From the NCBI GenBank assembly GCA_029570835.1, contig JAKPTX010000128.1, positions 1 through 11,666 on the forward strand: a stretch of DNA of 11,666 nt, in the 5' to 3' direction. The first letter of the stretch is position 1, and every line of letters starts with the position of its first letter. Below are positions 1 through 11,666 of this stretch, piece after piece. The notes below the pieces were generated by a model. The model saw only the letters and a program-made list of their open reading frames with translations. It was not told where the DNA came from and did not search any database. Source of the DNA: Bacteroidota bacterium (GTDB lineage: Bacteria; Bacteroidota; Bacteroidia; Bacteroidales; WCHB1-69). The translations under genes and the position numbers were made by a program.

Positions 1-95
1 CGTTTTCAAACAAAAAAGCCACGCCAATAGTCGCATGTAGTCAAAAGCCGCATGCTAATCTTTTAATGTGTCTAAAAAAGAATTATAAACAAGAG

Positions 96-112
96 GTGCT
101 GTAAATCAGCAC
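96..112. other. Small perfect hairpin gtgctg-taaat-cagcac (6-bp stem, 5-nt loop) distal to the GmrSD-like gene and element C3. It could help terminate the minus-strand transcript, but no immediate U-run follows.
   Basis: Read directly: gtgctg at 96-101 and cagcac at 107-112 are exact reverse complements. The T-run on the minus strand begins about 15 nt beyond the stem. Confidence 0.2.
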
Positions 113-138
113 TCCACAACTAAATTATTTTCGAATGA

Positions 139-230
139 AACGTTTGGCATTTCGAAGTGGTTTCCTATCAAGTTACAACTACTTTTGATACGAGCTAAAA
201 CGCTCGATAAACCACTGACCGCCAAATGTT
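139..230. repeat. C3, a shorter and diverged third copy of the structured element family (compare 2497-2605 and 3811-3919). Its conserved core is enclosed by its own two-part closing stem, and it sits 36 nt beyond the 3' end of the minus-strand GmrSD-like gene.
   Basis: The core segment tttcctatcaagttaca (161-177) is identical to C1 2527-2543, and accactga (211-218) matches C1 2577-2584 with similar spacing. The outer stem is aacgtttggc (139-148) with gccaaatgtt (221-230), 10 bp with one G-T wobble. The inner stem is agtggtt (155-161) with aaccact (210-216). An internal hairpin is cgagc-taaaac-gctcg (191-206). Confidence 0.4.
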
Positions 231-265
231 TTATATACGATGTTAGAGCCATGTGCATTATTTTC

Positions 266-1993
266 TTAGAAGTTTTCAAGTATAAATTTCACTATTTTTT
301 CTTTACGCAGACTGATTTTTTCTTTGTCCCAAATTTCCGATTCCACTGTCATTTTTTGAATTTCTCGTTGTTGTCCAAGATGATTATACGAACTTCTTTT
401 CTCGCTAAATGGTCTGTTCCCTACAGAACAATTGTGAGATTTTGAAAGAAGCAAATAATTTCCTAAACAGTCAATGTATTGGTTTCTAAATTCTTCATCA
501 TACTCACAATAACCTGCTGCAATTGGTTCTCCATTTGTTGGTGTTTGTGGTGCGATATGTTCTAATTCAGGACTTTCTATATTGTCAAAACGAGTCAAAG
601 AATAACCGTTTTTTCCTTGGTTTTCAGGATGATTTTCGTATTTCCAAAGTAAAAATTTGGCAGTTGCATGATGCATTCCGCCTTGTATTGATTTCTCAAA
701 TTCAGTCGTATTCCAATAAGCCCACCACCAATCAGTTGTGTTTTTCATCCAAACAATTCTATCAATTATGGGCTTTAAGTCTGGTTGTTCTGCTTTAAAT
801 TCTTGGTAAACACCATTTATTCTTGAAGTCATTTCTGCTCTTGTTCCAATAAGTCTATGGCGCAAAACCAATGATTCCATTGATGAACAAATCTTGCAGA
901 TTTCTTTTGTTTGTAGTCCGAAAGTATATGCTTTAATAACAAATGGGATTGCTATTGCAAAACCACCTAAAGTAATAATTGAATGAATCTCGATGTTTTC
1001 TCGTTCATCTTTCCCGAAGAATGTAGTCAAATGCTCAAAACTTACTGCAAGCGAATTTGTAAATGATTTGATAAAAGGAATTGGATTGCTTTCTGATAAT
1101 AGTTTATTGATTTTATCAATTGCATTTGATTCCCAAAGTGAATTGAAATGAACCCGCAAAGTGTAAACTAAAACATCATCTTCGTCTATTTTGTATTCAA
1201 TCGAAGATATTGATTTATAAATTTTTTCAAAGCGGTTTTTTATTTCTTCAATCAAACTGTCTTTTTCTTCACCACCGTACAGGTGAACATTGAACATGAA
1301 TTGGGCTTTAATAATTTCCAAATTTGAAGGCTTTTTCCCTCGATTGTTCTGGAAAATGAACATCTGAATTGCCTCTGATTCATTTTTTACGGGATGAGTA
1401 GTACAAGTTGCCTCGCTAACTGTTTTTAGCATTTTTATCAAAAACTGTTCGTCTTTATCTGCAAACGATTTTGAAAAAAAATCAAATGCTTTTACAATTC
1501 TTCTTGCTGATTCAGTTTCAATACCGTTTTTGTCTTTTTTTGTTTGATTTAAAACATAATCAATAAACAACTGTTTGTCATAATCTACAGTAGCAAATGT
1601 GTAATTAGACCCCAACTTAACCATACTTTTATAAAGAAAATCTTGCTCCTCCGTTAGAGTTCTTAATTCTTTCAGTCTCGTAAATAAAGCTGAAAGGAAG
1701 ATAATAATAGTGGTTAATCTTTGTTGCCCGTCAATTACACCAAAATTCCTACCCCCTTTTTCTTCAAAAAGGAAATGCCCGAAATAATAGGGACTTTCAA
1801 CTAAACTACGGTTATAATCAATTAAATCTTGAAGAAACACATCTGTATGTGTTTTTGTGTTTTTATTTTTATCATCTGATGGGGTTTCCCAAGAATAAGC
1901 ACGTTGATATGCAGGAACAAATATTTTGTTTCCTGCCAACATATTATTTATCGTTGTTGATGGTTCCATAAAATTATTGTCATTTTTTTGCAA
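266..1993 (-). CDS. GmrSD-family protein: an N-terminal DUF262 (ParB-like NTPase) domain fused to a C-terminal DUF1524 (His-Me/HNH-like nuclease) domain. Likely a type IV (modification-dependent) restriction endonuclease or BrxU/SspE-like defence nuclease. The ORF opens with TTG at 1993, and the first ATG (at 1969, residue 9) is the more plausible start.
   Basis: The translated ORF has the DUF262 hallmarks FVPAYQRAYSWE and VIDGQQRLTT near the N-terminus. The DUF1524 hallmarks ELEHIAPQ and GNYLLLSKSHN lie near the C-terminus. The long ORF is AT-rich with an A-rich leader. Confidence 0.8.
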   Translation of the reverse strand: MQKNDNNFMEPSTTINNMLAGNKIFVPAYQRAYSWETPSDDKNKNTKTHTDVFLQDLIDYNRSLVESPYYFGHFLFEEKGGRNFGVIDGQQRLTTIIIFLSALFTRLKELRTLTEEQDFLYKSMVKLGSNYTFATVDYDKQLFIDYVLNQTKKDKNGIETESARRIVKAFDFFSKSFADKDEQFLIKMLKTVSEATCTTHPVKNESEAIQMFIFQNNRGKKPSNLEIIKAQFMFNVHLYGGEEKDSLIEEIKNRFEKIYKSISSIEYKIDEDDVLVYTLRVHFNSLWESNAIDKINKLLSESNPIPFIKSFTNSLAVSFEHLTTFFGKDERENIEIHSIITLGGFAIAIPFVIKAYTFGLQTKEICKICSSMESLVLRHRLIGTRAEMTSRINGVYQEFKAEQPDLKPIIDRIVWMKNTTDWWWAYWNTTEFEKSIQGGMHHATAKFLLWKYENHPENQGKNGYSLTRFDNIESPELEHIAPQTPTNGEPIAAGYCEYDEEFRNQYIDCLGNYLLLSKSHNCSVGNRPFSEKRSSYNHLGQQREIQKMTVESEIWDKEKISLRKEKIVKFILENF

Positions 1994-2005
1994 TTTAAAA
2001 ATAGT

Positions 2006-2030
2006 ATGGTGGTGGCTACGCCACCACCAT
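2006..2030. terminator. Strong GC-rich hairpin (11-bp perfect stem atggtggtggc / gccaccaccat, loop tac) flanked by T-runs on both strands. It is a bidirectional rho-independent terminator sitting between the 102-aa gene and the GmrSD-like gene.
   Basis: Read directly: 2006-2016 is the exact reverse complement of 2020-2030. On the plus strand it is followed by ttttgttatt. On the minus strand it is followed by actattttt. Confidence 0.6.
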
Positions 2031-2038
2031 TTTTGTTA

Positions 2039-2347
2039 TTATCCAGCTCTTTCACTCAACTTTTTGAATGTTTTATCATATGTTCCTATCCAACTTCCCT
2101 TTTTGAAAATTATAGTAGAACCAGAAGCATTACGAAAGTCGCCAAGTGAAGAAACAGCAGCATCTTTAATTTTTTTGCCTGTTTCGTCATATGTACTATA
2201 CCAACTTCCTTTTACAAAAACGATAAAATCACTACCGATACCACAAAGGTCTCCAACTGATGAAGCTGCAATATCTTTAATTTTCTTACCATTACCGTCA
2301 AAAACTGTGTACCAGCTACCTTTTAATTGAACGTCTGAAATTGCCAT
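2039..2347 (-). CDS. Small protein built from three tandem copies of a roughly 36-aa repeat (KGSW-Y/I-x-x-YD-x-x-GKKI...). It resembles WG/KWG-type beta-repeat proteins, and its function is unknown.
   Basis: The ATG at 2345-2347 was confirmed and the leader is A-rich. The repeat KGSWYTVFDGNGKKIKD / KGSWYSTYDETGKKIKD / KGSWIGTYDKTFKKL is visible in the translation. It is also visible as a 108-bp DNA periodicity. Confidence 0.6.
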   Translation of the reverse strand: MAISDVQLKGSWYTVFDGNGKKIKDIAASSVGDLCGIGSDFIVFVKGSWYSTYDETGKKIKDAAVSSLGDFRNASGSTIIFKKGSWIGTYDKTFKKLSERAG

Positions 2348-2408
2348 ATTATCAATTTTTATTTTTTCGCCTACTCTGATTAGTTTTCGGCTTCCCTAAT
2401 TTAAATTT

Positions 2409-2416
2409 CAAAAATA
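2409..2416 (-). promoter_or_regulatory. Candidate Bacteroidota-type -7 promoter element (TATTTTTG on the minus strand, matching TAnnTTTG) about 60 nt upstream of the 102-aa gene start.
   Basis: The plus-strand sequence caaaaata at 2409-2416 is the reverse complement of TATTTTTG. A TTTG lies upstream on the minus strand, but the spacing is shorter than the usual 19-21 nt. Confidence 0.25.
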
Positions 2417-2444
2417 TGTCAAGCCTAAGTCAAAGTATGTCGTT

Positions 2445-2492
2445 GTCTCAAAATCTGTCTGTGTGTCTTTTTTCTTTGCATTGGCTCTAACG
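2445..2492. repeat. TGTC-rich, T-run containing segment (gtatgtcgttgtctcaaaatctgtctgtgtgtcttttttctttgcattggc). It is a direct repeat of the segment at 11604-11660 and directly abuts element C1.
   Basis: By eye, the two segments align as gtatgtcgt / tgtc / tgtc / tgtctttttt / ttgg. The repeat runs in the same orientation about 9.2 kb apart. Confidence 0.4.
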
Positions 2493-2496
2493 GTTG

Positions 2497-2605
2497 ACAA
2501 TATGGCCAGTAAGGGATTGCGGGCGATTTCCTATCAAGTTACACGAGAAGTTGAAGCGGGCTACAACCCTTCGCATACCACTGAAACCCTTATTGGCTAT
2601 ATTGT
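2497..2605. repeat. C1, a 109-nt structured element. A 19-bp closing stem (acaatatggccagtaaggg / cccttattggctatattgt, two G-T wobbles) encloses a 71-nt core conserved with C2. It is a candidate structured ncRNA or structure-specific DNA site.
   Basis: The 5' arm 2497-2515 pairs with the 3' arm 2587-2605. The core shares agtaagggattgcggg, tttcct-tcaa, tacac-gaag, ttga-gcggg and taccactgaaacccttattg with the copy at 3811-3919. The flank aacggttga is shared. Confidence 0.55.
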
Positions 2606-2630
2606 GTGTTGGCGGTTCGTTGTTTCTTTC

Positions 2631-2960
2631 CTAATTCTTTAAGATAAAACTATTTTTCTTATCTGTTAATGAATGTTTTGGGTTTAAAGAACTTTGTATA
2701 TCTGAAATCAATTCATCAATGTTTGAGATTGATTTTCTACGTGCATTATTCCAATCCCAAGTATTGCTATCAATATATTCAGTAATCTCAATTAAATTAT
2801 AATTTGTATTGAAATCATAACTTTTGCACCAGTCATTCCTATAATTATTTATACAAAACAGCCAAAGCATTCCGTCATTCTTAATCATGTAGGATTCGGT
2901 ATTTATACCTGTAAGTCCAAATATCTTAGAAAGTCTATCCTTAATTTCATTTATTTTCAT
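2631..2960 (-). CDS. Hypothetical 109-aa protein, Asn/Trp-rich with no recognisable domain. It is the second gene of a two-gene AT-rich cassette.
   Basis: The ATG at 2958-2960 was confirmed. It lies 18 nt downstream of the 251-aa ORF on the same strand, and the stop lies 10 nt from the outer stem of C1 (25 nt from the C1 3' arm). Confidence 0.5.
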   Translation of the reverse strand: MKINEIKDRLSKIFGLTGINTESYMIKNDGMLWLFCINNYRNDWCKSYDFNTNYNLIEITEYIDSNTWDWNNARRKSISNIDELISDIQSSLNPKHSLTDKKNSFILKN

Positions 2961-2978
2961 AACAATACCTTTTTATTT

Positions 2979-3734
2979 TTAGTTTTTTATCACAGAAATT
3001 ATAGCCTCATGAACCTTATTATTGCTTTCTAGTAATTGAATTAAATTACAAGATGAAAGAGAATTCGTGTCCGAAAAAGAATTGTATCGCCAATATTCAA
3101 ACTGATGACTCATTAGCCACTTTTCGTTCTTAAATATATCCAATAATTCAGATGGTATATTTTCTGAAAATGCAAAAACCTTCAGACTCTCAATAATTTC
3201 ATCACAAATCTTCTTGGGTTTGTCGGAATCATAATCATCAGACTTAGGAACATTATCCTTGTAATGTTTCAATTTTTCGATATTAGATTTTAACAAATCC
3301 ACTAACTTTACAATTGCATCTTTGTCAATACTTGACATAGAATTATCTGTTAAAGAACTCTTTATGTAATCTTTTATTTTGTTCTTGATTGAATCTTGTT
3401 CGTTTCCTGAAATCACTATTTGATAATCAATTGTTTTCTTTGCATCAGATTTTTGAATTAATTTTGAATTATGTCCTCTACGGCAATTATCAAGCGTTTC
3501 ATCTGGATTAAAGAATGAAACATATACCTCTATTGGGCTATCTTGATTACCTGCCCATGATTGTGAGAAGTAATTATCTAATTTTTGAAACAATCCAGTA
3601 ATGCTTTTTGCTTTAATATTATGCTCTATTGCAAAATTAATTACTCTATAATCAGGGAAATCGTAATCCCCCTCAATAAGTTTTGTGGTTACTTCACCAC
3701 CAATCAAATTTAATTCAAATTGTGAGTTTTTCAT
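2979..3734 (-). CDS. Hypothetical 251-aa protein, Lys/Asn/Asp-rich and apparently soluble, with no recognisable motif. It is the first gene of the AT-rich two-gene cassette between elements C2 and C1.
   Basis: The ATG at 3732-3734 was confirmed. The ORF is long and uninterrupted, and element C2 ends 77 nt upstream of it. Confidence 0.55.
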   Translation of the reverse strand: MKNSQFELNLIGGEVTTKLIEGDYDFPDYRVINFAIEHNIKAKSITGLFQKLDNYFSQSWAGNQDSPIEVYVSFFNPDETLDNCRRGHNSKLIQKSDAKKTIDYQIVISGNEQDSIKNKIKDYIKSSLTDNSMSSIDKDAIVKLVDLLKSNIEKLKHYKDNVPKSDDYDSDKPKKICDEIIESLKVFAFSENIPSELLDIFKNEKWLMSHQFEYWRYNSFSDTNSLSSCNLIQLLESNNKVHEAIISVIKN

Positions 3735-3810
3735 TTTAGTACCTTCTATTTTAAAGATTAAACATGAGTTTCCTACTAGTTTCTGGTTTTACAATGACCG
3801 CCAACGGTTG

Positions 3811-3919
3811 AGTGTAGCAGCAGTAAGGGATTGCGGGTTACTTTCCTGTCAAAATACACCGAAGTTTGAGCGGGGCAGAATGCTTGATTTACCACTGAAA
3901 CCCTTATTGCTGCTACACT
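3811..3919. repeat. C2, a 109-nt structured element of identical length to C1. An 18-19 bp closing stem (gtgtagcagcagtaaggg / cccttattgctgctacac) differs in sequence from the C1 stem but preserves pairing.
   Basis: The 5' arm 3812-3829 pairs with the 3' arm 3901-3918, and the pair 3811/3919 extends the stem. There is one G-T wobble at the same position as in C1. The inner stem agtaaggg/cccttatt and the 71-nt core are conserved. Confidence 0.55.
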
Positions 3920-4062
3920 TTGTTACCAACTGGCCTTCTTTCTTGTCAAGCGATACACCTTTTTGTTTATCAACTATTTCTATCATTTCGTTTTGTCTGT
4001 CGGATAGTGTATCAGCAAAGTTTTATTTTTTAAGTGGGATATTTCTTGTTTTTTTCGGGTGG

Positions 4063-4134
4063 GCAAAGCAAGCTCTTTTGCAAACTTTGGTTTGCGGGTT
4101 GGCTTTGAGCGGTTTGCAAATGTGCTTGCTTTGC
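4063..4134. repeat. Long imperfect inverted repeat (gcaaagcaagc-tcttt-tgcaaac ... gtttgca-aatgt-gcttgctttgc). A 26-nt loop between the arms carries ttgcgggtt and tttgagcgg, motifs also found in the C2 core. It lies immediately 3' of the 324-aa gene and is not followed by a U-run on the gene strand.
   Basis: 11 bp plus 7 bp of exact complementarity are separated by a 5-nt mismatch bubble. The 9-mers ttgcgggtt (4091-4099 versus 3831-3839) and tttgagcgg (4104-4112 versus 3865-3873) recur. Confidence 0.4.
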
Positions 4135-4147
4135 GTCCGGGTTCATA

Positions 4148-5122
4148 TTAGTTAAACTTTCCTGTGATTTGTGAAATATCAAATTTGCCGTCAATGTTTT
4201 GAATTTCGATTTTTCCATTCAGAATATCGAAGAAGAAATCGCGAATACGGTCGAAGGTCAAAATGGCGGGCTTTCCGTCTTTTCCAATACCAATATCGTA
4301 AGTTTTCAGCAGTTGTAAACCGAGCGAGGCAGCTGTCAAAAGAAAATGATTTTGAAACTTATCGGTATCCAACAAGTCGGCTGCCAACACTTTACCTATT
4401 ACAGTGTAACTGCGCAACGTTTTCTGAATTTCCTCATTGGTGAGCGTAGTTTTTACCTCATCGGTAGTAATATTCATTTCAATTTTACCTGAATTTTGTG
4501 CCTGTGGAAGTCCTTTGTAAAGTGCGCCCAAGTCAGCCAAACTCAAATTGTAAAGCCTTGCATCGGCGGTAGCAATCATCGGCTCAATTGAAAACGCACT
4601 CGGCAAAAGCAAGGAAATACTGCCTTCTACCCGCACCGACGGCGTGTTGAACGTGCCGACAAGGCTGTTTTTGAGGTCGATTTGCTGCGTAGCAAACACA
4701 CCGCCAACCACTATACTGTTTTCCAACACGACATCATCTGCATAAATGCTGCCCGCCACAAAAGCATTGTAAAGCGCTACACTCTTGGCGTTTATATCGG
4801 AATGGAAAACGAGTTTGGCGTTTTCTGCCCGCGAAACAAGGCTGTTTGCCGAGCCAACGCTCTTTTTGAACGCGATATTGCCTTTTGCCTCGCTGTTGAC
4901 ATAAAGTTCCAATTGCGTGAAAACAGCACCTTGAATTTCGAGGTCGCCGTTTTGGATTTCTAACTTGTGGGCATAAACCGGTCCTTCAACTACCGCATTG
5001 CCCTGCACTGTAATAGTGCGATTGAGTTCCGCGGCCTTTTCGGGCAAAATAGAGCCGCGCACCAGGTTGTCTTTCAATTGTATGTTGCTTTCGTTAAAAC
5101 GAAGTTCTTTTAACTCTTTCAT
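4148..5122 (-). CDS. A 324-aa protein with a bactofilin-like (DUF583-type) beta-helical repeat region at its N-terminus and a distinct C-terminal domain. It is the last gene of the six-gene operon.
   Basis: The ATG at 5120-5122 was confirmed. Residues about 35-175 show the alternating-hydrophobic pattern with Gly/Asn turns (VQGNAVVEGPVYAHKLEIQNGDLEIQGAVF...SIVVGGVFATQQIDL...SVRVEGSISLL), typical of bactofilin beta-helix rungs. Confidence 0.55.
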   Translation of the reverse strand: MKELKELRFNESNIQLKDNLVRGSILPEKAAELNRTITVQGNAVVEGPVYAHKLEIQNGDLEIQGAVFTQLELYVNSEAKGNIAFKKSVGSANSLVSRAENAKLVFHSDINAKSVALYNAFVAGSIYADDVVLENSIVVGGVFATQQIDLKNSLVGTFNTPSVRVEGSISLLLPSAFSIEPMIATADARLYNLSLADLGALYKGLPQAQNSGKIEMNITTDEVKTTLTNEEIQKTLRSYTVIGKVLAADLLDTDKFQNHFLLTAASLGLQLLKTYDIGIGKDGKPAILTFDRIRDFFFDILNGKIEIQNIDGKFDISQITGKFN

Positions 5123-5141
5123 TGTGATATTATTTTTATGA

Positions 5142-6176
5142 TTAAACTGATTTTATTGAGCTGAAATTTAGCATTTTAACAATATTTTCCCGCACACGAT
5201 TTGTGTGTGTATCGCCTGTGGAATAACGATTGCTGACTTCCGCGTTGAAATAACGCCCGATTTTCTCGGCATTGTCTTTGGGAAGGTTTCCCCAAGTTTT
5301 TGCCTGAAAATCAGAAATCATTTCGTTTGCCTGCATTTTTGGCAAAAAATCGGCTTGATACAGATTTTTGTCAATCTGACTTTTTTCGTTTTGCGTTTCG
5401 ATAAAGCAGACAGGCGAATAATGCACGGCTGCAACGCTCTCGTTCAGAACGGTTTGATTGATTGTGTCGTTCAAGCGTTTCTGTTTCACGAGAAAAGTAT
5501 TTGCCTTGCCGATAGTGTCAAACGCGCGTTTTTTGGCAATAGAGGCAGAAAGTCGCACCTGTAAATCGCCGCTCTCCGCGCCAAAAACGGCCACAGTACT
5601 TGCCAAATCGCCTGTCAAGGTGCGTCCTGCATGCTTGTCGCTCTGATTTTTGAAGACGAAAGCAGGCTTGTCCAATTCGTAAATACGGTTGGAAAGTTCG
5701 TTGTCCAAGTCCTCAAAAATTTTCAGGTAACGGCTAGAAATACGCTGATAGTCGCCTTGCATCTGCGTTTGTTTTTCCACACAACGTTTTGCCATTGAGT
5801 GCAGGTGTGCCAAATGGGAATCTAAACGGCTCGAAAGTTCTGCAATCTGCTGGCTGATTTCAGAGCGAATTGTTTTGAAAAAACCTTCTACAATGGTACT
5901 ACCCACTTTCTTTGCGTTGCTGTCGATAGATACAATTTGTGCCGTTTCGGTAGCAACGACTGCACCAGTGAGAACATTTACAGAATTGTTACAATTCGCT
6001 ACACTATTGTCGAAAGGAGTTGTTTCAACATCAATATTTACCTGTACATCTTCGTAAGCCGTACCGCTGTATGGTACACTTCCGCTATATGGTTTTCCAT
6101 CTACAGAACCAGAATAACTGACTCGACCCGAATAGTGAACTGCTATTTGTTTATGAAAACTTTGTCTATAACTCAT
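5142..6176 (-). CDS. Hypothetical 344-aa protein, mainly alpha-helical, a paralogue of the upstream 308-aa protein. It has a Ser/Gly/Tyr-rich N-terminus (YSGRVSYSGSVDGKPYSGSVPYSG).
   Basis: The ATG at 6174-6176 overlaps the TGA stop of the upstream gene (ATGA overlap). It shares GFFKTIRSEISQQIAEL...SSRYLKIF...ELDKP with the 308-aa ORF. Confidence 0.7.
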   Translation of the reverse strand: MSYRQSFHKQIAVHYSGRVSYSGSVDGKPYSGSVPYSGTAYEDVQVNIDVETTPFDNSVANCNNSVNVLTGAVVATETAQIVSIDSNAKKVGSTIVEGFFKTIRSEISQQIAELSSRLDSHLAHLHSMAKRCVEKQTQMQGDYQRISSRYLKIFEDLDNELSNRIYELDKPAFVFKNQSDKHAGRTLTGDLASTVAVFGAESGDLQVRLSASIAKKRAFDTIGKANTFLVKQKRLNDTINQTVLNESVAAVHYSPVCFIETQNEKSQIDKNLYQADFLPKMQANEMISDFQAKTWGNLPKDNAEKIGRYFNAEVSNRYSTGDTHTNRVRENIVKMLNFSSIKSV

Positions 6177-7099
6177 AATTGTTCGTTTTTAAGGGTTTGA
6201 AAATTATTAGCCATAAACAGTTTGTTAGCCATATCTTTTACCCGCTGCGAACTGCCCGAATTAGAAAGATATTTGCTGAACTCGCTTTTTACCTCCTTGT
6301 CGATTTCTTTTGACGGTTGCCACTCAATATTTTCAATATTGGAATTAACCGTGTTTTTAATGGTTGATTGAGTTTGTTTGCTCAACTGTGCATTATTTAA
6401 TTGAATATCAATATTTTTGCTGTCGAATTTATCAAAATTACACTCTAAAATTACCACAGGAACGGACAGGGTAGAATTTTCAACATTGCCTTTTTCAAGC
6501 AAAATTCTGTCAGTCAATTTTTTCTGTTCCGACATATCGGCAAGAAAGTTTGTCATTGAGTTGATAACTCTCAAACCTCGAAATTTTACATTCGAGGCAA
6601 TGATCTTCTGACTTGCCGCCAGCGATTCGAGTTGCGAAACAGGGACGGTTGCCGTCAGGTATTTTGTACGGTTAGATACCTTTTCCAATTCTTTAACTGC
6701 AAAATCGACAGTTGGTTTATCCAATTCAAAAATTCGCTGTTTCAGATTTTGATTCAATCCGTTGAAAAGTTTCAGATAACGAGAGGAAATCATATTATAG
6801 TCGCGTTCCATTCTGCCGCGTATTGCCAAAAGTTGCTTTTTTTGTGCGTTGAGCTGCATTAAATGCGAATCGACATCGCTTTGCAGTTTGGCTATTTTCT
6901 GCGAAATTTGAGAACGTATAAGCGTGTAAAAGCCTTTATTTACGTTGTCGCAAACGTGGTCGGCGGCTTTCTTTTCTGCCAAAACTACGGCAGTTTGCAT
7001 TGCTACAACCGCAGTTGTAGTCCCCTTGATATGATTGGACACTGAATGAATTTCCTGTGCCATCGGGTTGGTATCTACTACGCAATCTATATATGCCAT
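6173..7099 (-). CDS. Hypothetical 308-aa protein, mainly alpha-helical with a coiled-coil, the first of two tandem paralogues.
   Basis: The ATG at 7097-7099 lies 4 nt downstream of the 752-aa gene stop. It shares GFYTLIRSQISQKIAKL...SSRYLKLF...ELDKP with the 344-aa ORF. Confidence 0.7.
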   Translation of the reverse strand: MAYIDCVVDTNPMAQEIHSVSNHIKGTTTAVVAMQTAVVLAEKKAADHVCDNVNKGFYTLIRSQISQKIAKLQSDVDSHLMQLNAQKKQLLAIRGRMERDYNMISSRYLKLFNGLNQNLKQRIFELDKPTVDFAVKELEKVSNRTKYLTATVPVSQLESLAASQKIIASNVKFRGLRVINSMTNFLADMSEQKKLTDRILLEKGNVENSTLSVPVVILECNFDKFDSKNIDIQLNNAQLSKQTQSTIKNTVNSNIENIEWQPSKEIDKEVKSEFSKYLSNSGSSQRVKDMANKLFMANNFQTLKNEQL

Positions 7100-7103
7100 A
7101 ATC

Positions 7104-9362
7104 TTAAATTTTTATTTCGTTATCATTATCAAATTCGCCCTGATTTTCAAGAATATCATCGATTGCCTGCTCGCGATCGAATTCGTCTGCATCGTATTCC
7201 AAACCGAGTTCGTCAAGAATTTGCTGTAAAGACTCATCGTCCAAGTCGTTCAACTCATCTTTGGAATATTGATATTCTTCGGTTTCGTCATCCTCTTCTT
7301 GTTCTTCGTCTTCAGAAACTTCTTCCTCTTCTTCGTTGTCGTCTTCATCCTGTTCTTCGTCTTCAGAAAGTTCATCCTCTTGAATTTCGGAATCGTCTTC
7401 TGTAAGTTCTTCTTCGGAAATTACTGCCTGTTCTACAACAATTTCCTCATCTGCTTGCTCGTCCTCCGCCTCTTCGTTCAGGAGATTCCGACCTTCGTCG
7501 GAATAACCGTCGAATGGAGTTTCTTCTTCGCGTTCTTTCAGGTTTTCCAACGCATTTTTGGCAATAATCGGCAAATTGAGTGCGATATGCTCAAAAGTAA
7601 TGTCTTCTACATTGGGCGTAGGTGGCAATTCCGAAGATTTAGCAAACAGCGGATTAACCAAAGCCAAAGGCTTACGGCGGTCGTTGAGGTCACGTACTTC
7701 ATCGGCGGCAACTGCCACTTCATTGGAATACCCATCGCGAAGTTTTGCATCGTAATATTCGATATGTCCAAATTTATCGGCTTTCTGGTCAATATCTTCT
7801 TTGAGACGTTCCATATAATCTTCAAAATCCGATTGAGTCCGCTTAAATTCGTTTGACTGCATTTCGAATGCAATTAATGTTTCGGCAGCATTATCAACCA
7901 CATCAACAACGGTGCTGTCAAGGTTACCCTCCGACTGTACCATAGTATCTTCGGTGCGTTGCAACGAAACCAAGGTATTATAGGCAGCCACATATTCCTG
8001 CAAACTTTTTCCCATATCTCGAATAATATCAGCGGCTTCGGCACGGTTGCGACCATAAAAATCTTCGCAGTTTTCGTGCCAACGATTCAGATACTCAATT
8101 TTTTGGTCTTTGATATGATTGTAAATTTTAAGGCGTTCAATGCGGTTTTCAGCCATAAGATTTTGAACAACAGGTGTAACGATTTCCTCGTAAATCTGGT
8201 GTACGCCAAAAGGCAAATTGGTTGTGCTGCCATCTTCCGCCGTCCACATTCCCGAAACGAGATTATATTTTACCCGCGAACTCTGTTTGAGTTGGAAAGG
8301 CTCGTATCCCTGCACCGATTCGGTATAATCGAACTTCTCGTTGCGGATACGTTCGATTTCTTCGTGCTCCAAAAGCGGAGAATAGTGATTGTAAGGCGAT
8401 TTGAGAATTTGATACAAAACTTTGTTCGATTCAAAAATTATTTTATCGGTAGAAGCTACCTTCAAGGCAGAAATTGCTTGTACAGAATTTGCCATTGTGA
8501 TCATTAGCCCCTTCAAAACGTCCTCAAACTGTTGTGTTTTGTTCGACAATGAATCTTTTAACCTATTAAGTTCCTGAAATTTATTTACACTACCCGCATA
8601 TTTTTCCTTGTTGAAAACAGGAATAACCGGTGCGTTTTCAGGAATTTCCGTAGTCGCAAATTCATTTAGAAATTGTAGATATTCGCATTTATCGGCAACT
8701 AATGGTAACGATACCGAAGTGGTATCCAAGTCGTCCATACAGTAAGAAATGGTTCGCAGAGAGCGTTCCAATTTGCCGAAATAATCGTGCTGGTTGATTT
8801 CTTGAATAGAAGTAGAATACTCATCTGTTTCAATGGTTTCCGTGTCTTGCGAGGTTTCCACAATCGGAGCTTCCGACGACAAATTTTCAAGGTCAGCGAT
8901 TGTTTCAATGAGCAAATCGTTTTGCCGCGAAAGTTGCAATGTAATTTCCGACTCATTAACCTTGCCTGTGTAATCGACAATGAAACTTTTGTCTTCGTAC
9001 TTGATTTGATCGGCAATGGGAACATAAGCCACGCCCAACTTGCTCACTTTGTAGTCACGGAAAATCTCGCTATGCTGTTTTTTAAATTCGGCAATGCGCA
9101 TGTCTTTGTCCGCAATCTGTTTTCCCAACCCGCTTTTTTTTATGAAATACACAAAGAACAGAATGATTGTGAGAAACCAAACCCACAACTTGGAAATTTC
9201 TGCCTGCAACGCCGTTTTTTCTTCTTCGAGAACGGCAATTTGCTTTTCAATTCGTTCCTCTTCGGCAACGATTTTTTCAGCCGCCTGGCTGTAATAGTTG
9301 AACAATATCTTCGCCTGGTCTTGATAGACATTGTTCGATTCTGGAAAAATTTTACCTGTCAT
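7104..9362 (-). CDS. A 752-aa single-pass membrane protein. It has an N-terminal coiled-coil, one TM helix (LWVWFLTIILFFVYFI), a large central domain and a roughly 130-aa poly-acidic (Asp/Glu-rich) C-terminal tail with internal repeats.
   Basis: The ATG at 9360-9362 was confirmed and the ORF is long and uninterrupted. The tail reads SEDEEQDEDDNEEEEEVSEDEEQEEDDETEE, and the DNA shows a roughly 57-bp repeat at 7288-7382. Confidence 0.75.
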   Translation of the reverse strand: MTGKIFPESNNVYQDQAKILFNYYSQAAEKIVAEEERIEKQIAVLEEEKTALQAEISKLWVWFLTIILFFVYFIKKSGLGKQIADKDMRIAEFKKQHSEIFRDYKVSKLGVAYVPIADQIKYEDKSFIVDYTGKVNESEITLQLSRQNDLLIETIADLENLSSEAPIVETSQDTETIETDEYSTSIQEINQHDYFGKLERSLRTISYCMDDLDTTSVSLPLVADKCEYLQFLNEFATTEIPENAPVIPVFNKEKYAGSVNKFQELNRLKDSLSNKTQQFEDVLKGLMITMANSVQAISALKVASTDKIIFESNKVLYQILKSPYNHYSPLLEHEEIERIRNEKFDYTESVQGYEPFQLKQSSRVKYNLVSGMWTAEDGSTTNLPFGVHQIYEEIVTPVVQNLMAENRIERLKIYNHIKDQKIEYLNRWHENCEDFYGRNRAEAADIIRDMGKSLQEYVAAYNTLVSLQRTEDTMVQSEGNLDSTVVDVVDNAAETLIAFEMQSNEFKRTQSDFEDYMERLKEDIDQKADKFGHIEYYDAKLRDGYSNEVAVAADEVRDLNDRRKPLALVNPLFAKSSELPPTPNVEDITFEHIALNLPIIAKNALENLKEREEETPFDGYSDEGRNLLNEEAEDEQADEEIVVEQAVISEEELTEDDSEIQEDELSEDEEQDEDDNEEEEEVSEDEEQEEDDETEEYQYSKDELNDLDDESLQQILDELGLEYDADEFDREQAIDDILENQGEFDNDNEIKI
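7288..7382. repeat. Imperfect tandem repeat (about 57-bp period) inside the acidic-tail coding region of the 752-aa gene. It is a potential slippage or length-variation site.
   Basis: tcatcctcttcttgttcttcgtcttcagaaacttc (7288-7322) versus tcatcctgttcttcgtcttcagaaagttc (7345-7373). It encodes LSEDEEQDEDD / VSEDEEQEEDD. Confidence 0.5.
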
Positions 9363-9381
9363 GATTTTTATGATTTTAGAT

Positions 9382-10092
9382 TTAGTTTGAATAAATACTC
9401 TTTCTGATTTGATAAATTCTTTCTGCTTTTTTAAGATTGCTACCGATTGCCTCCTCGTTCATCGAATAATTGGAAATTGCAAACGCAATATCGTTGATAA
9501 CACGAATAAATTGCTGTTCCAAACCATGCGCCTCTGCATTTTCGGTTGGTGAAATAAACCGCAAGCTGTCTTCAAGTGTATTTATTTTGCGAATAAAATA
9601 TTCGGGCAAGTTCGGCAAATCGTTCATTTTGTCTTTCAAATCGCGTATTGCCGTTTTCATTTCATTAATACCGTTACGGTTAAATGTTTCCTGCTGATAC
9701 ACTTCCTGAACTTTGTTGCCTGAATGAATAACGGCAATAAAACCAAGCAGTAACAGAAAAAACAGTCCGCAATGAATGATAAACTGCAAAGCAAACGTCC
9801 ATTCGTAAGCAAGGTTTCCAATCAGCATTACAGCAATAGCGGTAATAGCGTAGAGCCAAGTGAAAAACCATCGTAAGCCAAGCGAACCGACTTTTTTACC
9901 CGATTTGTCGTTCAAATCAACCCAAGGAACAAGAATGTCGAGAAAAAGCAGTCCGTAAATGACAGACGAAACCACGATATTTAGCACGAGAATATCGGTT
10001 GCCAAACTGCCGCGAAACAGTAGAAACGCAGCAATAATAATTGCCTCTCCGCCAAGCAGCGCAATAAATGATAATATTTTCTTTGTATCCAT
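9382..10092 (-). CDS. A 236-aa integral membrane protein with four predicted TM helices in the N-terminal roughly 130 aa, followed by a roughly 100-aa soluble helical domain. No recognisable family.
   Basis: The ATG at 10090-10092 was confirmed. Four hydrophobic stretches (ILSFIALLGGEAIIIAAFLLF, LVLNIVVSSVIYGLLFLDILV, WFFTWLYAITAIAVMLIGNLAY, FALQFIIHCGLFFLLLLGFIAVI) are visible in the translation. Confidence 0.7.
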   Translation of the reverse strand: MDTKKILSFIALLGGEAIIIAAFLLFRGSLATDILVLNIVVSSVIYGLLFLDILVPWVDLNDKSGKKVGSLGLRWFFTWLYAITAIAVMLIGNLAYEWTFALQFIIHCGLFFLLLLGFIAVIHSGNKVQEVYQQETFNRNGINEMKTAIRDLKDKMNDLPNLPEYFIRKINTLEDSLRFISPTENAEAHGLEQQFIRVINDIAFAISNYSMNEEAIGSNLKKAERIYQIRKSIYSN

Positions 10093-10115
10093 AATTCGTA
10101 ATTTTTAATTCGTAA

Positions 10116-11381
10116 TTATCTCTTATTTCCACATTTTGGGCAAAATTTCACACTCGGAGGTAATGTTGTTCCGCAACGGCTACAACTGTCGCCGGAAGAA
10201 ACCTGTTTTCCGCAGTTTCCGCAGAAAGTTGCCCCAGCCACCATTGGAGCGTTGCAATGCGGACAGTTTCCGCCACCCGATTGTAACGGTGTTCCGCAAC
10301 TTACGCAACGTTTGGCGTTTTTATCATTGTCCGTTCCGCATTTTGGGCAAGGGTTGTATTCATCGCCACAATGCGGGCAAAATCGGGTTGTGCTGGGGAA
10401 CTTTTTGGCGCAGTTGGAACAATACACCATTTTAACCTGTTGTTGCTGCTCTTGATTAAAATTGCCGCCTTGCTGATTATTGCCGCCAAAATTAGGCTGA
10501 TTGAATTGTGGCTGCATCATTCCGCCACCAACAGCGCCGCTGCCACCCATTCCACCCATCATATTCATTGCCATCAGACCGCCAATAAGTCCGCCGTTGC
10601 CATTTCCAAAACCATCAACAGCATTGTTAGCGGTATTGAACATTTGTTCTTGTTGCCAAGTGTGCCCTGTAATTGACATCGACGCTTGCGTTGCAATGGC
10701 TTCCGCTACCTTTCTGCCTTCTTCTGTGGATTTATCAATATCAATCGTTGTAATATTAAATTGCAACAATTCCAAACCCAAGTTGTCCCAAAATGGATTT
10801 AGAACACCTTTTAAATATTCAGACAATTCGTCCAAATAAGCGGATAAATACTTAAAACCGACACGGTGTTTAATCACATATTGAGCAATTTGCGACTTGG
10901 TTTTTGTAGAAAATTCTCCGAAAAACTGATTAGTCAAATCATCCTGCGAAAATTCGGTTTTCGTGCCTACAGATTTTATCAGGAATTTTTCCGCATCATT
11001 GACTTTCAAACCATAACGCCCGCCTGCTACAAGCGGCAGTTGCGTATTGTAATCGGGGTCGTGTATCGGCATTTTGCTTACCGCCCAATCAATGCTGAAC
11101 GTTTGAATTTTGTTTACAAACCACACCTCCGCCGTAAACGGATTTTTCCCACCGAAAGGTATTCCGAACAGCGATCGCAAAATCGGCAAGTTTTCGGTGT
11201 TTAAGGTGTGTTTCCCCGGACCGAATTTACCTACAACCTGCCCTTTTGAGAACAATACCGCTTCTTGTGATTCCTGCACAACGAGTTGCGTGTAGGTACT
11301 CAAATTAGTTTCGGGGAAACGCCAAGCGTAAATGGTTTTACTCCCCTGCGGCGACCATCTGACTAAATCAATTATTGCCAT
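10116..11381 (-). CDS. SPFH/Band-7-like domain protein (YdjI / PF13421-type N-terminal domain) fused through a Gly/Met/Gln/Asn-rich low-complexity linker to four C-terminal zinc ribbons (8 CxxC pairs). It is the first gene of the operon.
   Basis: The ATG at 11379-11381 was confirmed. The N-terminus IIDLVRWSPQGSKTIYAWRFP...LVVQESQEAVLFSKGQVVGKFGPGKHTL...AEVWFVN matches the SPFH Band_7_1 family signature as I recall it. The C-terminus reads CSNC..CPHC, CPKC..CVSC, CPHC..CGNC, CSRC..CPKC. Confidence 0.75.
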   Translation of the reverse strand: MAIIDLVRWSPQGSKTIYAWRFPETNLSTYTQLVVQESQEAVLFSKGQVVGKFGPGKHTLNTENLPILRSLFGIPFGGKNPFTAEVWFVNKIQTFSIDWAVSKMPIHDPDYNTQLPLVAGGRYGLKVNDAEKFLIKSVGTKTEFSQDDLTNQFFGEFSTKTKSQIAQYVIKHRVGFKYLSAYLDELSEYLKGVLNPFWDNLGLELLQFNITTIDIDKSTEEGRKVAEAIATQASMSITGHTWQQEQMFNTANNAVDGFGNGNGGLIGGLMAMNMMGGMGGSGAVGGGMMQPQFNQPNFGGNNQQGGNFNQEQQQQVKMVYCSNCAKKFPSTTRFCPHCGDEYNPCPKCGTDNDKNAKRCVSCGTPLQSGGGNCPHCNAPMVAGATFCGNCGKQVSSGDSCSRCGTTLPPSVKFCPKCGNKR

Positions 11382-11500
11382 ATCTTTTTGATTTTAAAGT
11401 TTGTATTTATAAATTTACTCTTTTCGTGCGAAGGGAAAAATGGCTCTTTGACTTTTGCGAAGCGTTGACTTGTGTGTTGGGCAAAAGGTAATGTGCCATT
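11382..11500 (-). promoter_or_regulatory. Leader and promoter region of the six-gene operon. It has no Shine-Dalgarno sequence. A palindromic TAAATTTA (11410-11417) is a weak -7-like candidate. Direct repeats TTGACTT (11448-11454 and 11465-11471) and GCGAAG (11428-11433 and 11457-11462) are candidate regulator sites.
   Basis: The repeats were read directly from the sequence. No canonical TAnnTTTG or TTTG pair at correct spacing was found, so the exact promoter is unresolved. Confidence 0.3.
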
Positions 11501-11603
11501 TTCGTGGTGGTTTCTAAAAACAAAAAAAGCGGGTCGGTAAAAAATAAAACTTTATCGGGACGGCTGGTGTAGTAGGCAGTCATTCCGATTTGATTTTCTT
11601 CTT

Positions 11604-11660
11604 TGTCTTTGTATGTCGTCTTGTCAATTTTCATGTCGCTGTCTTTTTTTTAGGCTTGTT
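11604..11660. repeat. TGTC-rich, T-run containing segment (gtatgtcgtcttgtcaattttcatgtcgctgtcttttttttaggcttgttggtaac). It is a direct repeat of the segment at 2445-2492.
   Basis: The 9-mer gtatgtcgt is shared exactly. Four tgtc motifs are shared in register, as are tgtctttttt and the terminal ttgg...taac. In the other copy this segment is followed immediately by element C1. Confidence 0.4.
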
Positions 11661-11666
11661 GGTAAC

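What the first reader, a model, noticed from the sequence alone, without database searches (positions are those of the whole stretch)
139..230. Third, shorter variant of the element (C3) with its own, different closing stem
C3 retains a 17-nt exact core match (tttcctatcaagttaca) and the accactga block at the same spacing, but it lacks the agtaagggattgcggg segment. It is closed by yet another stem sequence: aacgtttggc with gccaaatgtt (one G-T wobble, again in the plus sense), plus agtggtt with aaccact.

A third independent stem solution around the same core strengthens the structure-over-sequence argument. C3 shows that the family has length variants. Like C1, it directly follows the 3' end of a minus-strand gene (the GmrSD-like ORF).
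Basis: seen in the sequence. Interest (0 to 1): 0.6.

Follow-up and report, generated by a model that had tools for sequence, protein, structure and literature searches.

The report
Decayed integron-type cassette recombination site
The 92-base feature is a damaged copy of a hairpin-forming recombination site that marks the end of a mobile gene cassette, and it belongs to a large, apparently undescribed integron-like system in Bacteroidota whose nearby recombinase lacks the hallmark domain of integron integrases.

Summary
The sequence facts are correct, but C3 is neither a short variant nor a third independent stem solution. It is a copy of a widespread full-length subtype ("type B") of a ~125-nt element. 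I found this element in 103 loci from GTDB species genomes, mostly Bacteroidota and Ignavibacteriota.

C3's aacgtttggc/gccaaatgtt stem is the covariation-supported inner helix P2, homologous to cagtaaggg/cccttattg in C1 and C2. Its agtggtt/aaccact stem is unique to this copy. What C3 lacks is the outer 5' arm and the AACGGTTG box.

The elements behave like integron attC sites:
- They form same-strand arrays, and 257 of 269 neighbouring ORFs are antisense to the element's plus sense.
- Each sits just after a stop codon.
- Each inter-element segment is bounded by exact 9-10-nt inverted repeats, GTTNNNNNN...NNNNNNAAC. This holds for 3 of 3 segments in the window and 44 of 70 elsewhere, against 0.6% of random pairs.
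- One cassette with its element is found inserted alone in an ATPase gene, and removing it restores that gene.

Array ends abut ~270-370-aa XerA/IntI-like tyrosine recombinases that lack the IntI-specific insertion. No canonical IntI turned up.

C3 lacks the crossover box, so it is probably a dead site that freezes the GmrSD cassette in place.

The parts
135..244 (+). C3: a type-B copy of the element. It retains helix P2, the core, the 3' half of P1 and the terminal GTT. It lacks the 5' half of P1 and the AACGGTTG crossover box.
   Evidence: Covariance model R1 scores 125.5 bits over 114-262, but C3 was in the seed alignment. Independently, blastn homology to the intact L051 copy starts at 135 and the alignment is.
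137..148 (+). 5' arm of helix P2 in C3 (gaaacgtttggc). It pairs with 221-232.
   Evidence: The fold is. The homologous columns 26-36/110-122 show compensatory changes across the family.
161..218 (+). Conserved core: TTTCCTATCAAGTTACA, 33 nt, then ACCACTGA. It is conserved in sequence, with no covariation-supported structure.
   Evidence: The inner hairpins are 80% pairable, which is no better than the shuffles.
221..232 (+). 3' arm of helix P2 in C3 (gccaaatgtttt).
233..239 (+). 3' arm of outer helix P1 (atatacg). Its 5' partner, which is cgtatat in intact copies, is missing from the window.
   Evidence: Alignment A1, comparing winC3 with L007, L017 and L059.
242..251 (+). R-box flank GTTAGAGCCA. 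It is the exact reverse complement of 2482-2491 and marks one end of the GmrSD cassette.
   Evidence: first row, and direct reading.
252..2481 (-). Cargo of cassette A: a GmrSD-type nuclease (266-1993) and a 102-aa repeat protein (2039-2347). C3 is this cassette's site.
   Evidence: Pfam GmrSD_N and GmrSD_C. PADLOC HEC-06/Orf5/SspE-like. The same cassette at 83% identity sits beside an intact site in L051.
2482..2491 (+). Left flank of C1, TGGCTCTAAC. It is complementary to 242-251. The inferred crossover lies between A2490 and C2491.
2489..2610 (+). C1: a complete type-A element, running from AAC through GGTTGA, P1, P2, the core, P2' and P1' to TGTGTT.
   Evidence: R1 scores 158 bits. Alignment.
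2608..2616 (+). Right flank of C1, GTTGGCGGT. It is the reverse complement of 3797-3805.
   Evidence: second row.
2617..3796 (-). Cargo of cassette B: ORFs 2631-2960 and 2979-3734, with no family match. C1 is this cassette's site.
3797..3805 (+). Left flank of C2, ACCGCCAAC.
3803..3924 (+). C2: a complete type-A element.
   Evidence: R1 scores 122.9 bits. Inverted repeat I4.
3922..3930 (+). Right flank of C2, GTTACCAAC. It is the reverse complement of the last 9 bases of the window.
3931..11657 (-). Cargo of cassette C: a 45-aa ORF and a seven-gene operon (4148-11634). C2 is this cassette's site. Cargo, flank boxes and site together make a 7.85-kb mobile unit.
   Evidence: The same unit is found as a solo insertion in L109 and L110 with boundaries G|TTACCAAC...CTCAACCG|. 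Removing it from L110 restores a 373-aa AAA_14/DUF4143 gene.
11658..11666 (+). Left flank GTTGGTAAC of a fourth element (C4), which is cut off by the end of the window.
   Evidence: The element continues in L013 and in the window's own contig at L104 2079-1930, where R1 scores 84.9 bits.
96..112 (-). Terminator-like hairpin just downstream, in gene sense, of the decayed C3. It may mark the distal end of the array.

Best explanation
C3 is the recombination site of the GmrSD gene cassette, equivalent to an integron attC site. It sits in a chromosomal integron-like cassette array of a Bacteroidota bacterium.

The element. A full site is about 125 nt in the plus sense: AAC-GGTTG, outer helix P1, inner helix P2, a roughly 70-nt core conserved in sequence, then P2', P1' and (T)GTT. 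The plus strand is the bottom strand relative to the cassette genes. I infer that it folds as single-stranded DNA into a long hairpin.

The reaction. A tyrosine recombinase cuts at AA^C of the AACGGTTG box, which is G^TT in gene sense. A cassette therefore consists of TT, 6-7 cassette-specific bases, the gene or genes, and the site up to CAACCG. In the excised circle the cassette-specific bases pair with the other end of the site. This is why every inter-element segment is bounded by 9-10-nt inverted repeats.

The recombinase. The enzyme most likely responsible is a ~270-370-aa XerA/IntI-like recombinase. It is found at the gene-sense upstream end of such arrays beside an attI-like junction, and it lacks the IntI-specific insertion.

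C3 itself. It has lost the 5' P1 arm and the crossover box. It is therefore predicted to be inactive, leaving the GmrSD cassette fixed as the last unit before a terminator-like hairpin.

What is shown and what is inferred. Shown: the conserved fold with strand bias, the array organisation, the cassette boundaries, the mobility of a cassette together with its site, and the adjacency of the recombinase. Inferred: the single-strand pathway, which enzyme acts, the role of the core, and the inactivity of C3.
For: - Family and fold. There are 103 loci, and R1 gives 194 hits in 100 of them. P1+P2 are 92% paired, 14 of 18 pairs are compensatory, and 0 of 500 shuffles reach the observed covariation. 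Conserved G-T pairs favour the plus strand.
- Arrays. Up to 9 same-strand elements occur within 8 kb. The window's own 22-kb contig is one array of at least 7 cassettes.
- Polarity. 257 of 269 flanking ORFs are antisense to the element's plus sense, and the stop codon abuts the site.
- Cassette ends. The right flank of one element and the left flank of the next are exactly complementary over 9-10 nt, starting at GTT. This holds in 44 of 70 adjacent pairs, against 1 of 157 for the two flanks of the same element and 19 of 2958 for random pairs. It holds for all 3 segments in the window.
- Mobility. The seven-gene cassette with its C2-type site is inserted alone at two unrelated places, with identical ends. 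Removing 7,852 nt from L110 restores an intact AAA_14/DUF4143 ORF.
- Minimal homology at junctions. Partner sites share at most 3 nt (AAC) with the site. This fits integron-type single-strand exchange and does not fit a classical 6-8-bp overlap.
- Recombinase. In L024, L082, L102, L002 and L057 the attI-like junction lies about 105-150 nt from the gene. An 85%-identical homologue in L111 heads two tandem arrays of the same elements. Nine of 80 more distant homologue loci carry R1 hits, and in each the array extends in the geometry expected for a recombinase at its upstream end.
- Cargo typical of chromosomal integrons: GmrSD, EcoRI methylase and type I restriction-modification genes.
- C3 decay..
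Against: - No canonical IntI was found. The neighbouring recombinases miss the insertion regarded as essential for attC recognition: NCBIfam TIGR02249 scores 179-212 bits against a cutoff of 265 and matches in two stretches, and the alignment shows the gap directly.
- At least one such recombinase, in L090, is paired with an IS91 Y2 transposase, so some neighbours may belong to other mobile elements.
- Several apparent array ends have no recombinase within reach.
- The helix has no extrahelical bases, which are the classic attC strand-selection feature.
- A ~70-nt core conserved in sequence is not a feature of attC sites in general. Its role is unknown.
- Only GTTR of the GTTRRRY consensus is conserved.
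- No experiment and no circular-junction read was examined.
- The apparent invariance of the core in the first 103 loci is partly due to ascertainment, because the search pattern required it. Lower-scoring array members have a decayed core.
Confidence: 0.8

Rival explanations
1. These are ordinary attC sites of a classical integron or CALIN. The true integrase is a canonical IntI located elsewhere in each genome, and the short recombinases at array ends are unrelated neighbours such as IS91-associated or Xer-like enzymes.
For: The site architecture and the cassette logic are those of classical integrons. A Chondrinema megaplasmid array carries heterogeneous AACG...GTTRNN sites and has no recombinase nearby. 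The L090 recombinase sits beside an IS91 Y2 transposase. IntegronFinder reports integrons in Chlorobi and Ignavibacteriae and one in Salinibacter (PMC9024848).
Against: tblastn with IntI1 over 645 kb of array-proximal DNA found only recombinases lacking the insertion. In 5 loci the junction lies 105-150 nt from such a gene. L111 has two recombinase-array units in tandem. In 9 of 9 distant-homologue loci the array extends in the expected geometry.
Confidence: 0.13
2. The element is a structured RNA transcribed from the plus strand or carried in the 3' UTR of the minus-strand genes. It would act as a regulator, stabiliser or terminator. Its position between genes would then reflect RNA function rather than recombination.
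For: The helix shows strong covariation and conserved G-U-compatible pairs in the plus sense. The core is conserved and single-stranded. The element always sits next to a stop codon.
Against: No Rfam family matches at E up to 1. There is no T-run after the hairpin. RNA function does not explain flank complementarity across cassettes, the precise solo insertions or the recombinase junctions. The mRNA-sense strand would carry A-C mismatches at the two conserved wobble positions. A secondary RNA role is not excluded.
Confidence: 0.04
3. The element is a selfish hairpin repeat that spreads on its own into intergenic regions, like a REP/BIME unit, a MITE or a PATE mobilised by a Y1/HUH transposase.
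For: It is a highly repeated, palindromic, intergenic element found in many genomes. An IS91-type HUH transposase lies near one array.
Against: The two flanks of a single element are not complementary or duplicated: only 1 of 157 reach 9 nt. The mobile unit seen in L109 and L110 is the genes plus one element, not the element alone. Outer stems differ between copies while the ends stay AAC/GTT, unlike transposase-defined terminal repeats.
Confidence: 0.03

Closest known systems
Integron attC sites, especially the homogeneous sites of sedentary chromosomal integrons such as the Vibrio cholerae repeats (VCRs)
   Same: Both are imperfect palindromes of about 60-140 nt placed 3' of promoterless ORFs in same-orientation arrays. 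The ends are ...YAAC and GTTR.... The crossover is at G^TT, so the start of each cassette pairs with its own R'' box. One strand folds better than the other. Partner sites share minimal homology. Cassettes can insert at secondary sites. The cargo is rich in defence genes. Related sites share extensive sequence identity.
   Different: The helix is a continuous ~19-bp duplex with two conserved G-T pairs and no extrahelical bases. The unpaired spacers are asymmetric: 5 nt (GGTTG) against 1-3 nt. A ~70-nt core is conserved in sequence across phyla. R-box complementarity is cassette-specific and 9-10 bp long, continuing after a 3-nt mismatch, in place of the 7-bp RYYYAAC/GTTRRRY consensus. Cassettes reach 7.85 kb. 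The adjacent recombinase lacks the IntI insertion.
IntI integron integrases (e.g. VchIntIA, PDB 2A3V; NCBIfam TIGR02249)
   Same: The array-end recombinases are 30-34% identical to IntI1 over nearly their whole length and share the C-terminal (K/R)SP(L/F)D motif. They sit at the upstream end of arrays beside an attI-like junction, either divergent from or co-directional with the cassettes.
   Different: They are ~270-370 aa, the longer ones carrying N-terminal extensions, and lack the roughly 40-residue insertion. They fall below the TIGR02249 cutoff and score best on NF040815, 'XerA/integron integrase'. Their best solved relative is archaeal XerA 4A8E at 131 bits, ahead of IntI4 at 121 bits.
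[quoted passage not shown]
   Same: The window and its 22-kb contig are an array of sites with no integrase in view.
   Different: CALIN is an operational class defined by hits to the IntegronFinder attC model. Whether that model recognises these sites could not be tested here.
Xer/dif-based modules (pdif modules, IMEX elements)
   Same: A Xer-family tyrosine recombinase is involved, and modules are bounded by inverted short sites.
   Different: There is no contiguous 28-bp dif-like site with a shared 6-8-bp central region. Junction partners share at most 3 nt. The site is a ~125-nt hairpin with a strand bias.

Membership tests
The element family defined here (model R1; types A and B) | Scaffold AACG..-P1-GTATG-P2-ATT.CG-core-P2'-TATAC-P1'-TGTT, with a paired P1 and P2 | tested here: inconclusive
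   C3 has P2, the core, the 3' arm of P1 and TGTT. R1 scores it 125.5 bits, but it was a seed sequence. It is near-identical to about 30 independent type-B copies over 135-244. The AACG box and the 5' arm of P1 are absent. C3 is therefore a member, but an incomplete one.
Integron attC site | An imperfect inverted repeat of about 50-150 nt that folds as a single strand, with one strand favoured | tested here: met
   Folds. Covariation. G-T 193 against A-C 25 cells.
Integron attC site | Terminal core sites R'' = RYYYAAC and R' = GTTRRRY | tested here: inconclusive
   AAC and GTT are near-invariant. The next base is R in 79 of 80 right flanks and Y in 69 of 76 left flanks. The remaining three positions do not follow RRY/RYY.
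Integron attC site | Crossover at G^TT, so the cassette runs from TT... to ...G and its first bases pair with its own R'' box | tested here: met
   44 of 70 adjacent pairs and 3 of 3 in the window are complementary from GTT. The solo-insertion boundaries are G|TTACCAAC...CAACCG|. The target gene is restored on removal.
Integron attC site | Lies 3' of ORFs in arrays of one orientation | tested here: met
Integron attC site | Extrahelical bases on the bottom strand and a symmetric unpaired central spacer between the R and L boxes | tested here: not met
   P1+P2 form one continuous helix without bulges. The spacers are 5 nt against 1-3 nt. This departs from the textbook anatomy, which I cite from my own knowledge of the attC literature.
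Integron attC site | Detected by the IntegronFinder attC covariance model | not testable with these tools
   That model is not in Rfam and is not available here.
Integron (complete) | An adjacent IntI carrying the IntI-specific insertion in the catalytic domain | tested here: not met
   Only recombinases lacking the insertion were found in 645 kb of array-proximal DNA. None lies in the window or its contig.
Any Rfam RNA family | A covariance-model hit on the element | tested here: not met
   No hit on 114-262, 2481-2628 or 3795-3942 at E up to 1.
REP/MITE-type autonomous repeat | The element alone is the mobile unit, with target duplication or its own terminal repeats | tested here: not met
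   The two flanks of a single element are unrelated. The mobile unit includes the genes.
Xer/dif site | A contiguous ~28-bp site with two arms and a central region shared between partners | tested here: not met
   Junction partners share only AAC or G.

The most novel reading that the evidence does not exclude
The window samples a previously undescribed class of integron-like platform that is widespread in Bacteroidota and Ignavibacteriota, with sporadic occurrences elsewhere. In it a short XerA/IntI-like tyrosine recombinase, lacking the domain thought essential for attC recognition, would capture and shuffle cassettes. It would do so through long bulge-free hairpin sites that carry a conserved single-stranded core and cassette-specific 9-10-bp R boxes. 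The cassettes include multi-gene units up to 7.85 kb, some carrying known defence genes, and they can also insert into ordinary genes.
Probability: 0.4. Interest if true: 0.8.

Novelty: new variant of a known kind. Interest (0 to 1): 0.62.

Why it matters
- Integron biology holds that attC recognition depends on extrahelical bases read by the IntI-specific domain. A cassette system that works with neither would show a second solution to single-strand site recognition.
- It would extend integron-type gene capture to a phylum where complete integrons are reported as nearly absent (PMC9024848).
- The arrays are a ready catalogue of mobile cargo. It includes known defence genes (GmrSD, restriction-modification) and unknown multi-gene units such as the seven-gene SPFH operon.
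- The cassette-specific R-box complementarity may bear on the unsolved question of how cassettes are created.
- For C3 itself the result is modest. It is a decayed terminal site, useful mainly as the thread that led to the family.

Tried and rejected
- Rfam search of the whole window at E up to 1. Nothing fell on the elements.
- Looking up the contig through the GmrSD protein failed. The likely cause is that the ORF as I read it (575 aa, TTG start) differs from the called gene (567 aa). Other window proteins worked.
- Reading the element as coding. Type-A and type-B copies are open in different frames across the same conserved core, so no conserved peptide exists. This is my reading of the sequences.
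- Inner hairpins of the core (TATCAA/TTGATA and CGAGC/GCTCG). They are pairable in 80% of cells, which equals the shuffles, and only two isolated cells show a change on both sides. They are therefore unsupported.
- C3's agtggtt/aaccact stem. It is not conserved.
- A canonical IntI near arrays. None was found.
- A phage origin. There is no match among 50,697 phage records.
- Plasmids. Only 5 weak matches, all on Cytophagales megaplasmids.
- Literature. Six searches, one of them for the sequences themselves, found no description of these elements. The library is incomplete, so a prior description cannot be excluded.
- Extending the window to the left. At least two assemblies (L104, L106) end within about 20 nt of window position 1.
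- A presence/absence comparison of cassette B with L051. It was not clean, because L051 carries a different cassette with the same R box.

Full report
**1. Checking the observation.**

The bases are as described. TTTCCTATCAAGTTACA lies at 161-177. It recurs exactly at 2527-2543 and with 3 mismatches at 3842-3858. That is 3 matches against 0.09 expected, and no shuffle reaches 3. ACCACTGA follows 50 nt after the start of the 17-mer in C3 and C1, and 49 nt after it in C2.

aacgtttggc (139-148) pairs with gccaaatgtt (221-230) with one G-T pair. agtggtt (156-162) can pair with aaccact (210-216). The plus strand of 131-240 folds at -19.6 kcal/mol, z = -4.97. The GmrSD ORF (Pfam GmrSD_N and GmrSD_C) ends at 266-268.

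**2. The core is not a chance word.**

I scanned one genome from each of 185,579 species for TTTCCTRTCAARWTACA-N28-38-ACCACTGA. The scan returned 103 loci. My own estimate of the chance expectation is about 0.1.

Most loci come from Bacteroidales, Prolixibacteraceae, Marinilabiliaceae-type isolates, Saprospiraceae and Ignavibacteriota. A few short contigs are binned to other phyla.

**3. What C3 is within the family.**

The copies fall into subtypes. Type A, which includes C1 and C2, reads AACGGTTG-P1-CAGTAAGGGATTGCGGG-core-ACCACTGAAACCCTTATTG-P1'-TGTT. Type B reads AACGGTTG-CGTGTAT-GAAACGTTTGGCATTTCGAAGCGA-core-ACCACTGACTGCCAAATGTTTT-ATACACG-TTGTT.

C3 is a type-B copy, and 32 of the 87 aligned copies are type B. 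In the alignment the segment said to be missing is replaced column for column, not deleted. C3's closing stem is therefore helix P2, homologous to cagtaaggg/cccttattg in C1 and C2.

The consensus fold has an outer helix P1 and an inner helix P2. Together they are 92% paired, 14 of 18 pairs carry compensatory changes, and 0 of 500 shuffles reach the observed covariation. Slid controls are 32-43% paired.

Two positions are G-T in 81 and 85 of 87 copies. Overall there are 193 G-T cells against 25 A-C cells, so the plus strand is the folding strand.

C3's second stem is private to this copy. 23 of the 32 type-B copies read AGCGATT where C3 reads AGTGGTT. Its central pair forms in 1 of 87 copies, and no pair in it shows a compensatory change. 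The candidate hairpins inside the core pair no better than shuffles, so the core is conserved as sequence.

What C3 does lack is the 5' arm of P1 and the AACGGTTG box. An 83%-identical copy of the GmrSD cassette in L051 has an intact type-B site, and homology stops at window position 135.

**4. Arrays and polarity.**

A covariance model built from the 87 copies finds only C1, C2 and C3 in the window. It finds 194 hits in 100 loci, with up to 9 per 8 kb, and within each locus they lie on one strand with a single exception, L083.

Of the ORFs next to an element, 151 of 153 on the 3' side and 106 of 116 on the 5' side are antisense to the element's plus sense. The stop codon lies at the edge of the site.

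The window ends in GTTGGTAAC, which is exactly the left flank of a fourth element. That element is seen whole in L013 and in the window's own contig. The contig is ENA ERZ27257415 k141_850013, 21,970 nt long. It is one array of at least 7 cassettes. In gene sense they are:
- a GmrSD_N protein;
- an EcoRI-type methylase with a GmrSD/HNH protein;
- an Rv1490-like protein with UbiA, HAD and EamA genes;
- a Fib_succ lipoprotein with a 298-aa protein;
- the seven-gene SPFH operon;
- the 251-aa and 109-aa ORFs;
- the 102-aa ORF with GmrSD, followed by C3.

**5. Cassette boundaries.**

In the window, each right flank is the exact reverse complement of the next element's left flank:
- C3 right flank GTTAGAGCCA (242-251) and C1 left flank TGGCTCTAAC (2482-2491);
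- C1 right flank GTTGGCGGT and C2 left flank ACCGCCAAC;
- C2 right flank GTTACCAAC and C4 left flank GTTGGTAAC.

Over all loci, 44 of 70 adjacent pairs show exact 9-10-nt complementarity starting at GTT. The figure is 1 of 157 for the two flanks of a single element and 19 of 2958 for random pairs. Many of the failures have an undetected, divergent site between the two elements. The complementarity resumes after a 3-nt mismatch.

This is the signature of integron cassettes. The crossover is at G^TT, so the first bases of a cassette are those that pair with the R'' box of its own site once the cassette is circular. That reading rests on established integron knowledge.

**6. Direct evidence of mobility.**

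The seven-gene operon with a C2-type site also occurs alone in two unrelated places. In L109 it lies among SiaC genes on a 202-kb contig. In L110 it lies inside an AAA_14/DUF4143 gene next to a Cas9 locus.

In both places homology starts at ...ctatG|TTACCAACAAGCC and ends at ...CTCAACCG|. Deleting the 7,852 nt from L110 restores an uninterrupted 373-aa ORF with full-length AAA_14 and DUF4143 domains.

The mobile unit is therefore the genes plus the site on their 3' side. Target and cassette share only 1-3 nt at the junction. This argues for integron-type single-strand exchange and against a classical tyrosine-recombinase overlap region.

**7. The recombinase.**

They lack the roughly 40-residue IntI-specific insertion. 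They score best on NCBIfam NF040815, 'XerA/integron integrase'. On TIGR02249 they fall below the cutoff, matching in two stretches that skip the insertion. Their closest solved relatives are XerA 4A8E at 131 bits and IntI4 2A3V at 121 bits.

At array ends the last cassette closes with its complementary ...AAC followed by AT-rich non-element sequence. An example is ACGGCTAAC|TCATTTATTTACGAA in L024. In L024, L082, L102, L002 and L057 the recombinase gene lies 105-150 nt from that junction, either divergent from the cassettes or co-directional with them.

I then tested the association from the recombinase side.
- The L024 enzyme has thousands of homologues; nearly all of the 120 best listed are ~270-280 aa.
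- An 85%-identical homologue in L111 heads two tandem arrays of the same elements, with a junction 95 nt before its ATG.
- Among 80 more distant homologue loci, 9 carry R1 hits, and in each the array extends in one of the two expected geometries.

There are caveats.
- The L090 recombinase is paired with an IS91 Y2 transposase.
- Some array ends show no recombinase.
- Homologues at 58-63% identity have no strong R1 hit nearby.

**8. Heterogeneity of the sites.**

Lower-scoring array members keep the scaffold (AACG, GTATG, ATT.CG, TATAC, TGTT) but have a decayed core. Many partner sites are followed by hairpins that the model misses.

A Chondrinema litorale megaplasmid carries a 19-ORF same-strand array. 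Its intergenic sites share only AACG...GTTRNN and range from 100 to 230 nt.

The conserved core therefore marks a large subfamily and is not a requirement of the system. The invariance seen in the first 103 loci is partly due to ascertainment, because the search pattern required the core.

**9. Comparison with known systems.**

Of the attC features, four are met:
- folding of a single strand with a strand bias;
- position and orientation in arrays;
- crossover at G^TT;
- complementarity between the R'' box and the cassette start.

One feature, the RYYYAAC/GTTRRRY consensus, is only partly met, as GTTR/YAAC.

Two features are not met:
- extrahelical bases with a symmetric spacer;
- an adjacent IntI carrying the insertion.

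Rfam has no family for the element. IntegronFinder 2.0 reports complete integrons as nearly absent from Bacteroidetes (PMC9024848). Six literature searches, one using the sequences themselves, found no description. The library is incomplete, so I rate the system as a new variant of a known kind and not as categorically new.

**10. Verdict on C3.**

C3 is the site of the GmrSD cassette. It has lost the arm and the box where strand exchange is inferred to occur. It is followed in gene sense by terminator-like hairpins at 112-96 and 37-20.

It is most likely a dead terminal site that fixes the GmrSD cassette in place. At least two assemblies (L104, L106) stop within about 20 nt of window position 1, so the next unit could not be seen.

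Noticed in passing
window 2368-2400 (-): A near-threshold match to the Rfam DUF805b cis-regulatory motif: 33.1 bits against a gathering score of 35.6, E = 2.9e-6. It lies 20 nt upstream of the ATG of the 102-aa ORF (2039-2347). That ORF is built of roughly 37-aa internal repeats, seen as direct repeats D1 and D4 spaced 111 nt apart.
   Followed up: no
window 2006-2030: A perfect 11-bp GC-rich hairpin flanked by T-runs on both strands, a candidate bidirectional terminator. It lies between GmrSD and the small ORF, inside a single cassette, so the two genes of cassette A may be transcribed separately.
   Followed up: no
window 4148-11634 (-): A seven-gene operon encoding proteins of 75, 421 (SPFH/Band7 with multiple zinc ribbons), 236, 752, 308, 344 and 324 aa. 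It has no PADLOC hit and almost no Pfam hits. It travels as one 7.85-kb cassette. Its 75-aa protein is indexed in 517 blocks of the collection, and the operon is inserted alone in at least two non-array places. It is a candidate for an unknown accessory or defence system.
   Followed up: partly
window 4063-4134: A 23-nt-arm inverted repeat, 91% complementary with 26 nt between the arms. It lies after the last gene of the operon and before the 45-aa ORF and C2. It is conserved in L109 and L110. It has an A-run after it on the gene strand and no T-run, so it is not a standard terminator.
   Followed up: no
window 3849-3986 (-): A 45-aa ORF called as a gene in several assemblies. It starts upstream of C2 and ends inside it, using the conserved core as coding sequence. 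It may be an artefact of gene calling or a site-overlapping micro-ORF.
   Followed up: no
L002, L011, L024, L025, L049, L082 (GTTAGCCGTTCGGTG); L013, L014, L017, L100 (GTTGTGCGTTCGTGC); window 2608-2622 and L083 (GTTGGCGGTTCGTTG): The cassette-specific R-box sequences come from a limited, recurring repertoire shared by cassettes in different genomes and phyla. They often have the form GTT-N6-TCG/TGG-N4. I do not know why unrelated cassettes reuse the same 12-15 nt.
   Followed up: partly
L033 2448-2619 and L047 1912-2080: Two elements carry a roughly 25-nt insertion (acttttctcacgaccaaagggagta and actattctcacgaccgcagggagta) immediately after ACCACTGA. These are true length variants of the family, unlike C3.
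   Followed up: no
L090 4369-6390 (-): A recombinase of the same type is directly followed by an IS91-family Y2 transposase (Y2_Tnp with Zn_Tnp_IS91). The pair sits about 340 nt beyond an array-end junction at 4027. The relation between IS91-linked and array-linked recombinases is unresolved.
   Followed up: partly
L111 3884-20126: Two recombinase-plus-array units lie in tandem on a 542-kb contig. The attI-like junction of the first unit looks degenerate: GGCCATAAT where GCCCATAAC is expected.
   Followed up: partly
L024 6172-6190, L011 about 3141-3160, L111 about 9900-9925: AT-rich junctions next to divergent recombinases share a TTAT(T/A)TACGAA(C/T)T-like motif about 5-15 nt from the crossover. 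It is a candidate recombinase-binding site of the attI equivalent.
   Followed up: no
window 1-20; ends of L104 and L106: At least two independent assemblies of this region (L104, L106) stop within about 20 nt of window position 1. This suggests an unresolved repeat immediately beyond the decayed C3.
   Followed up: no
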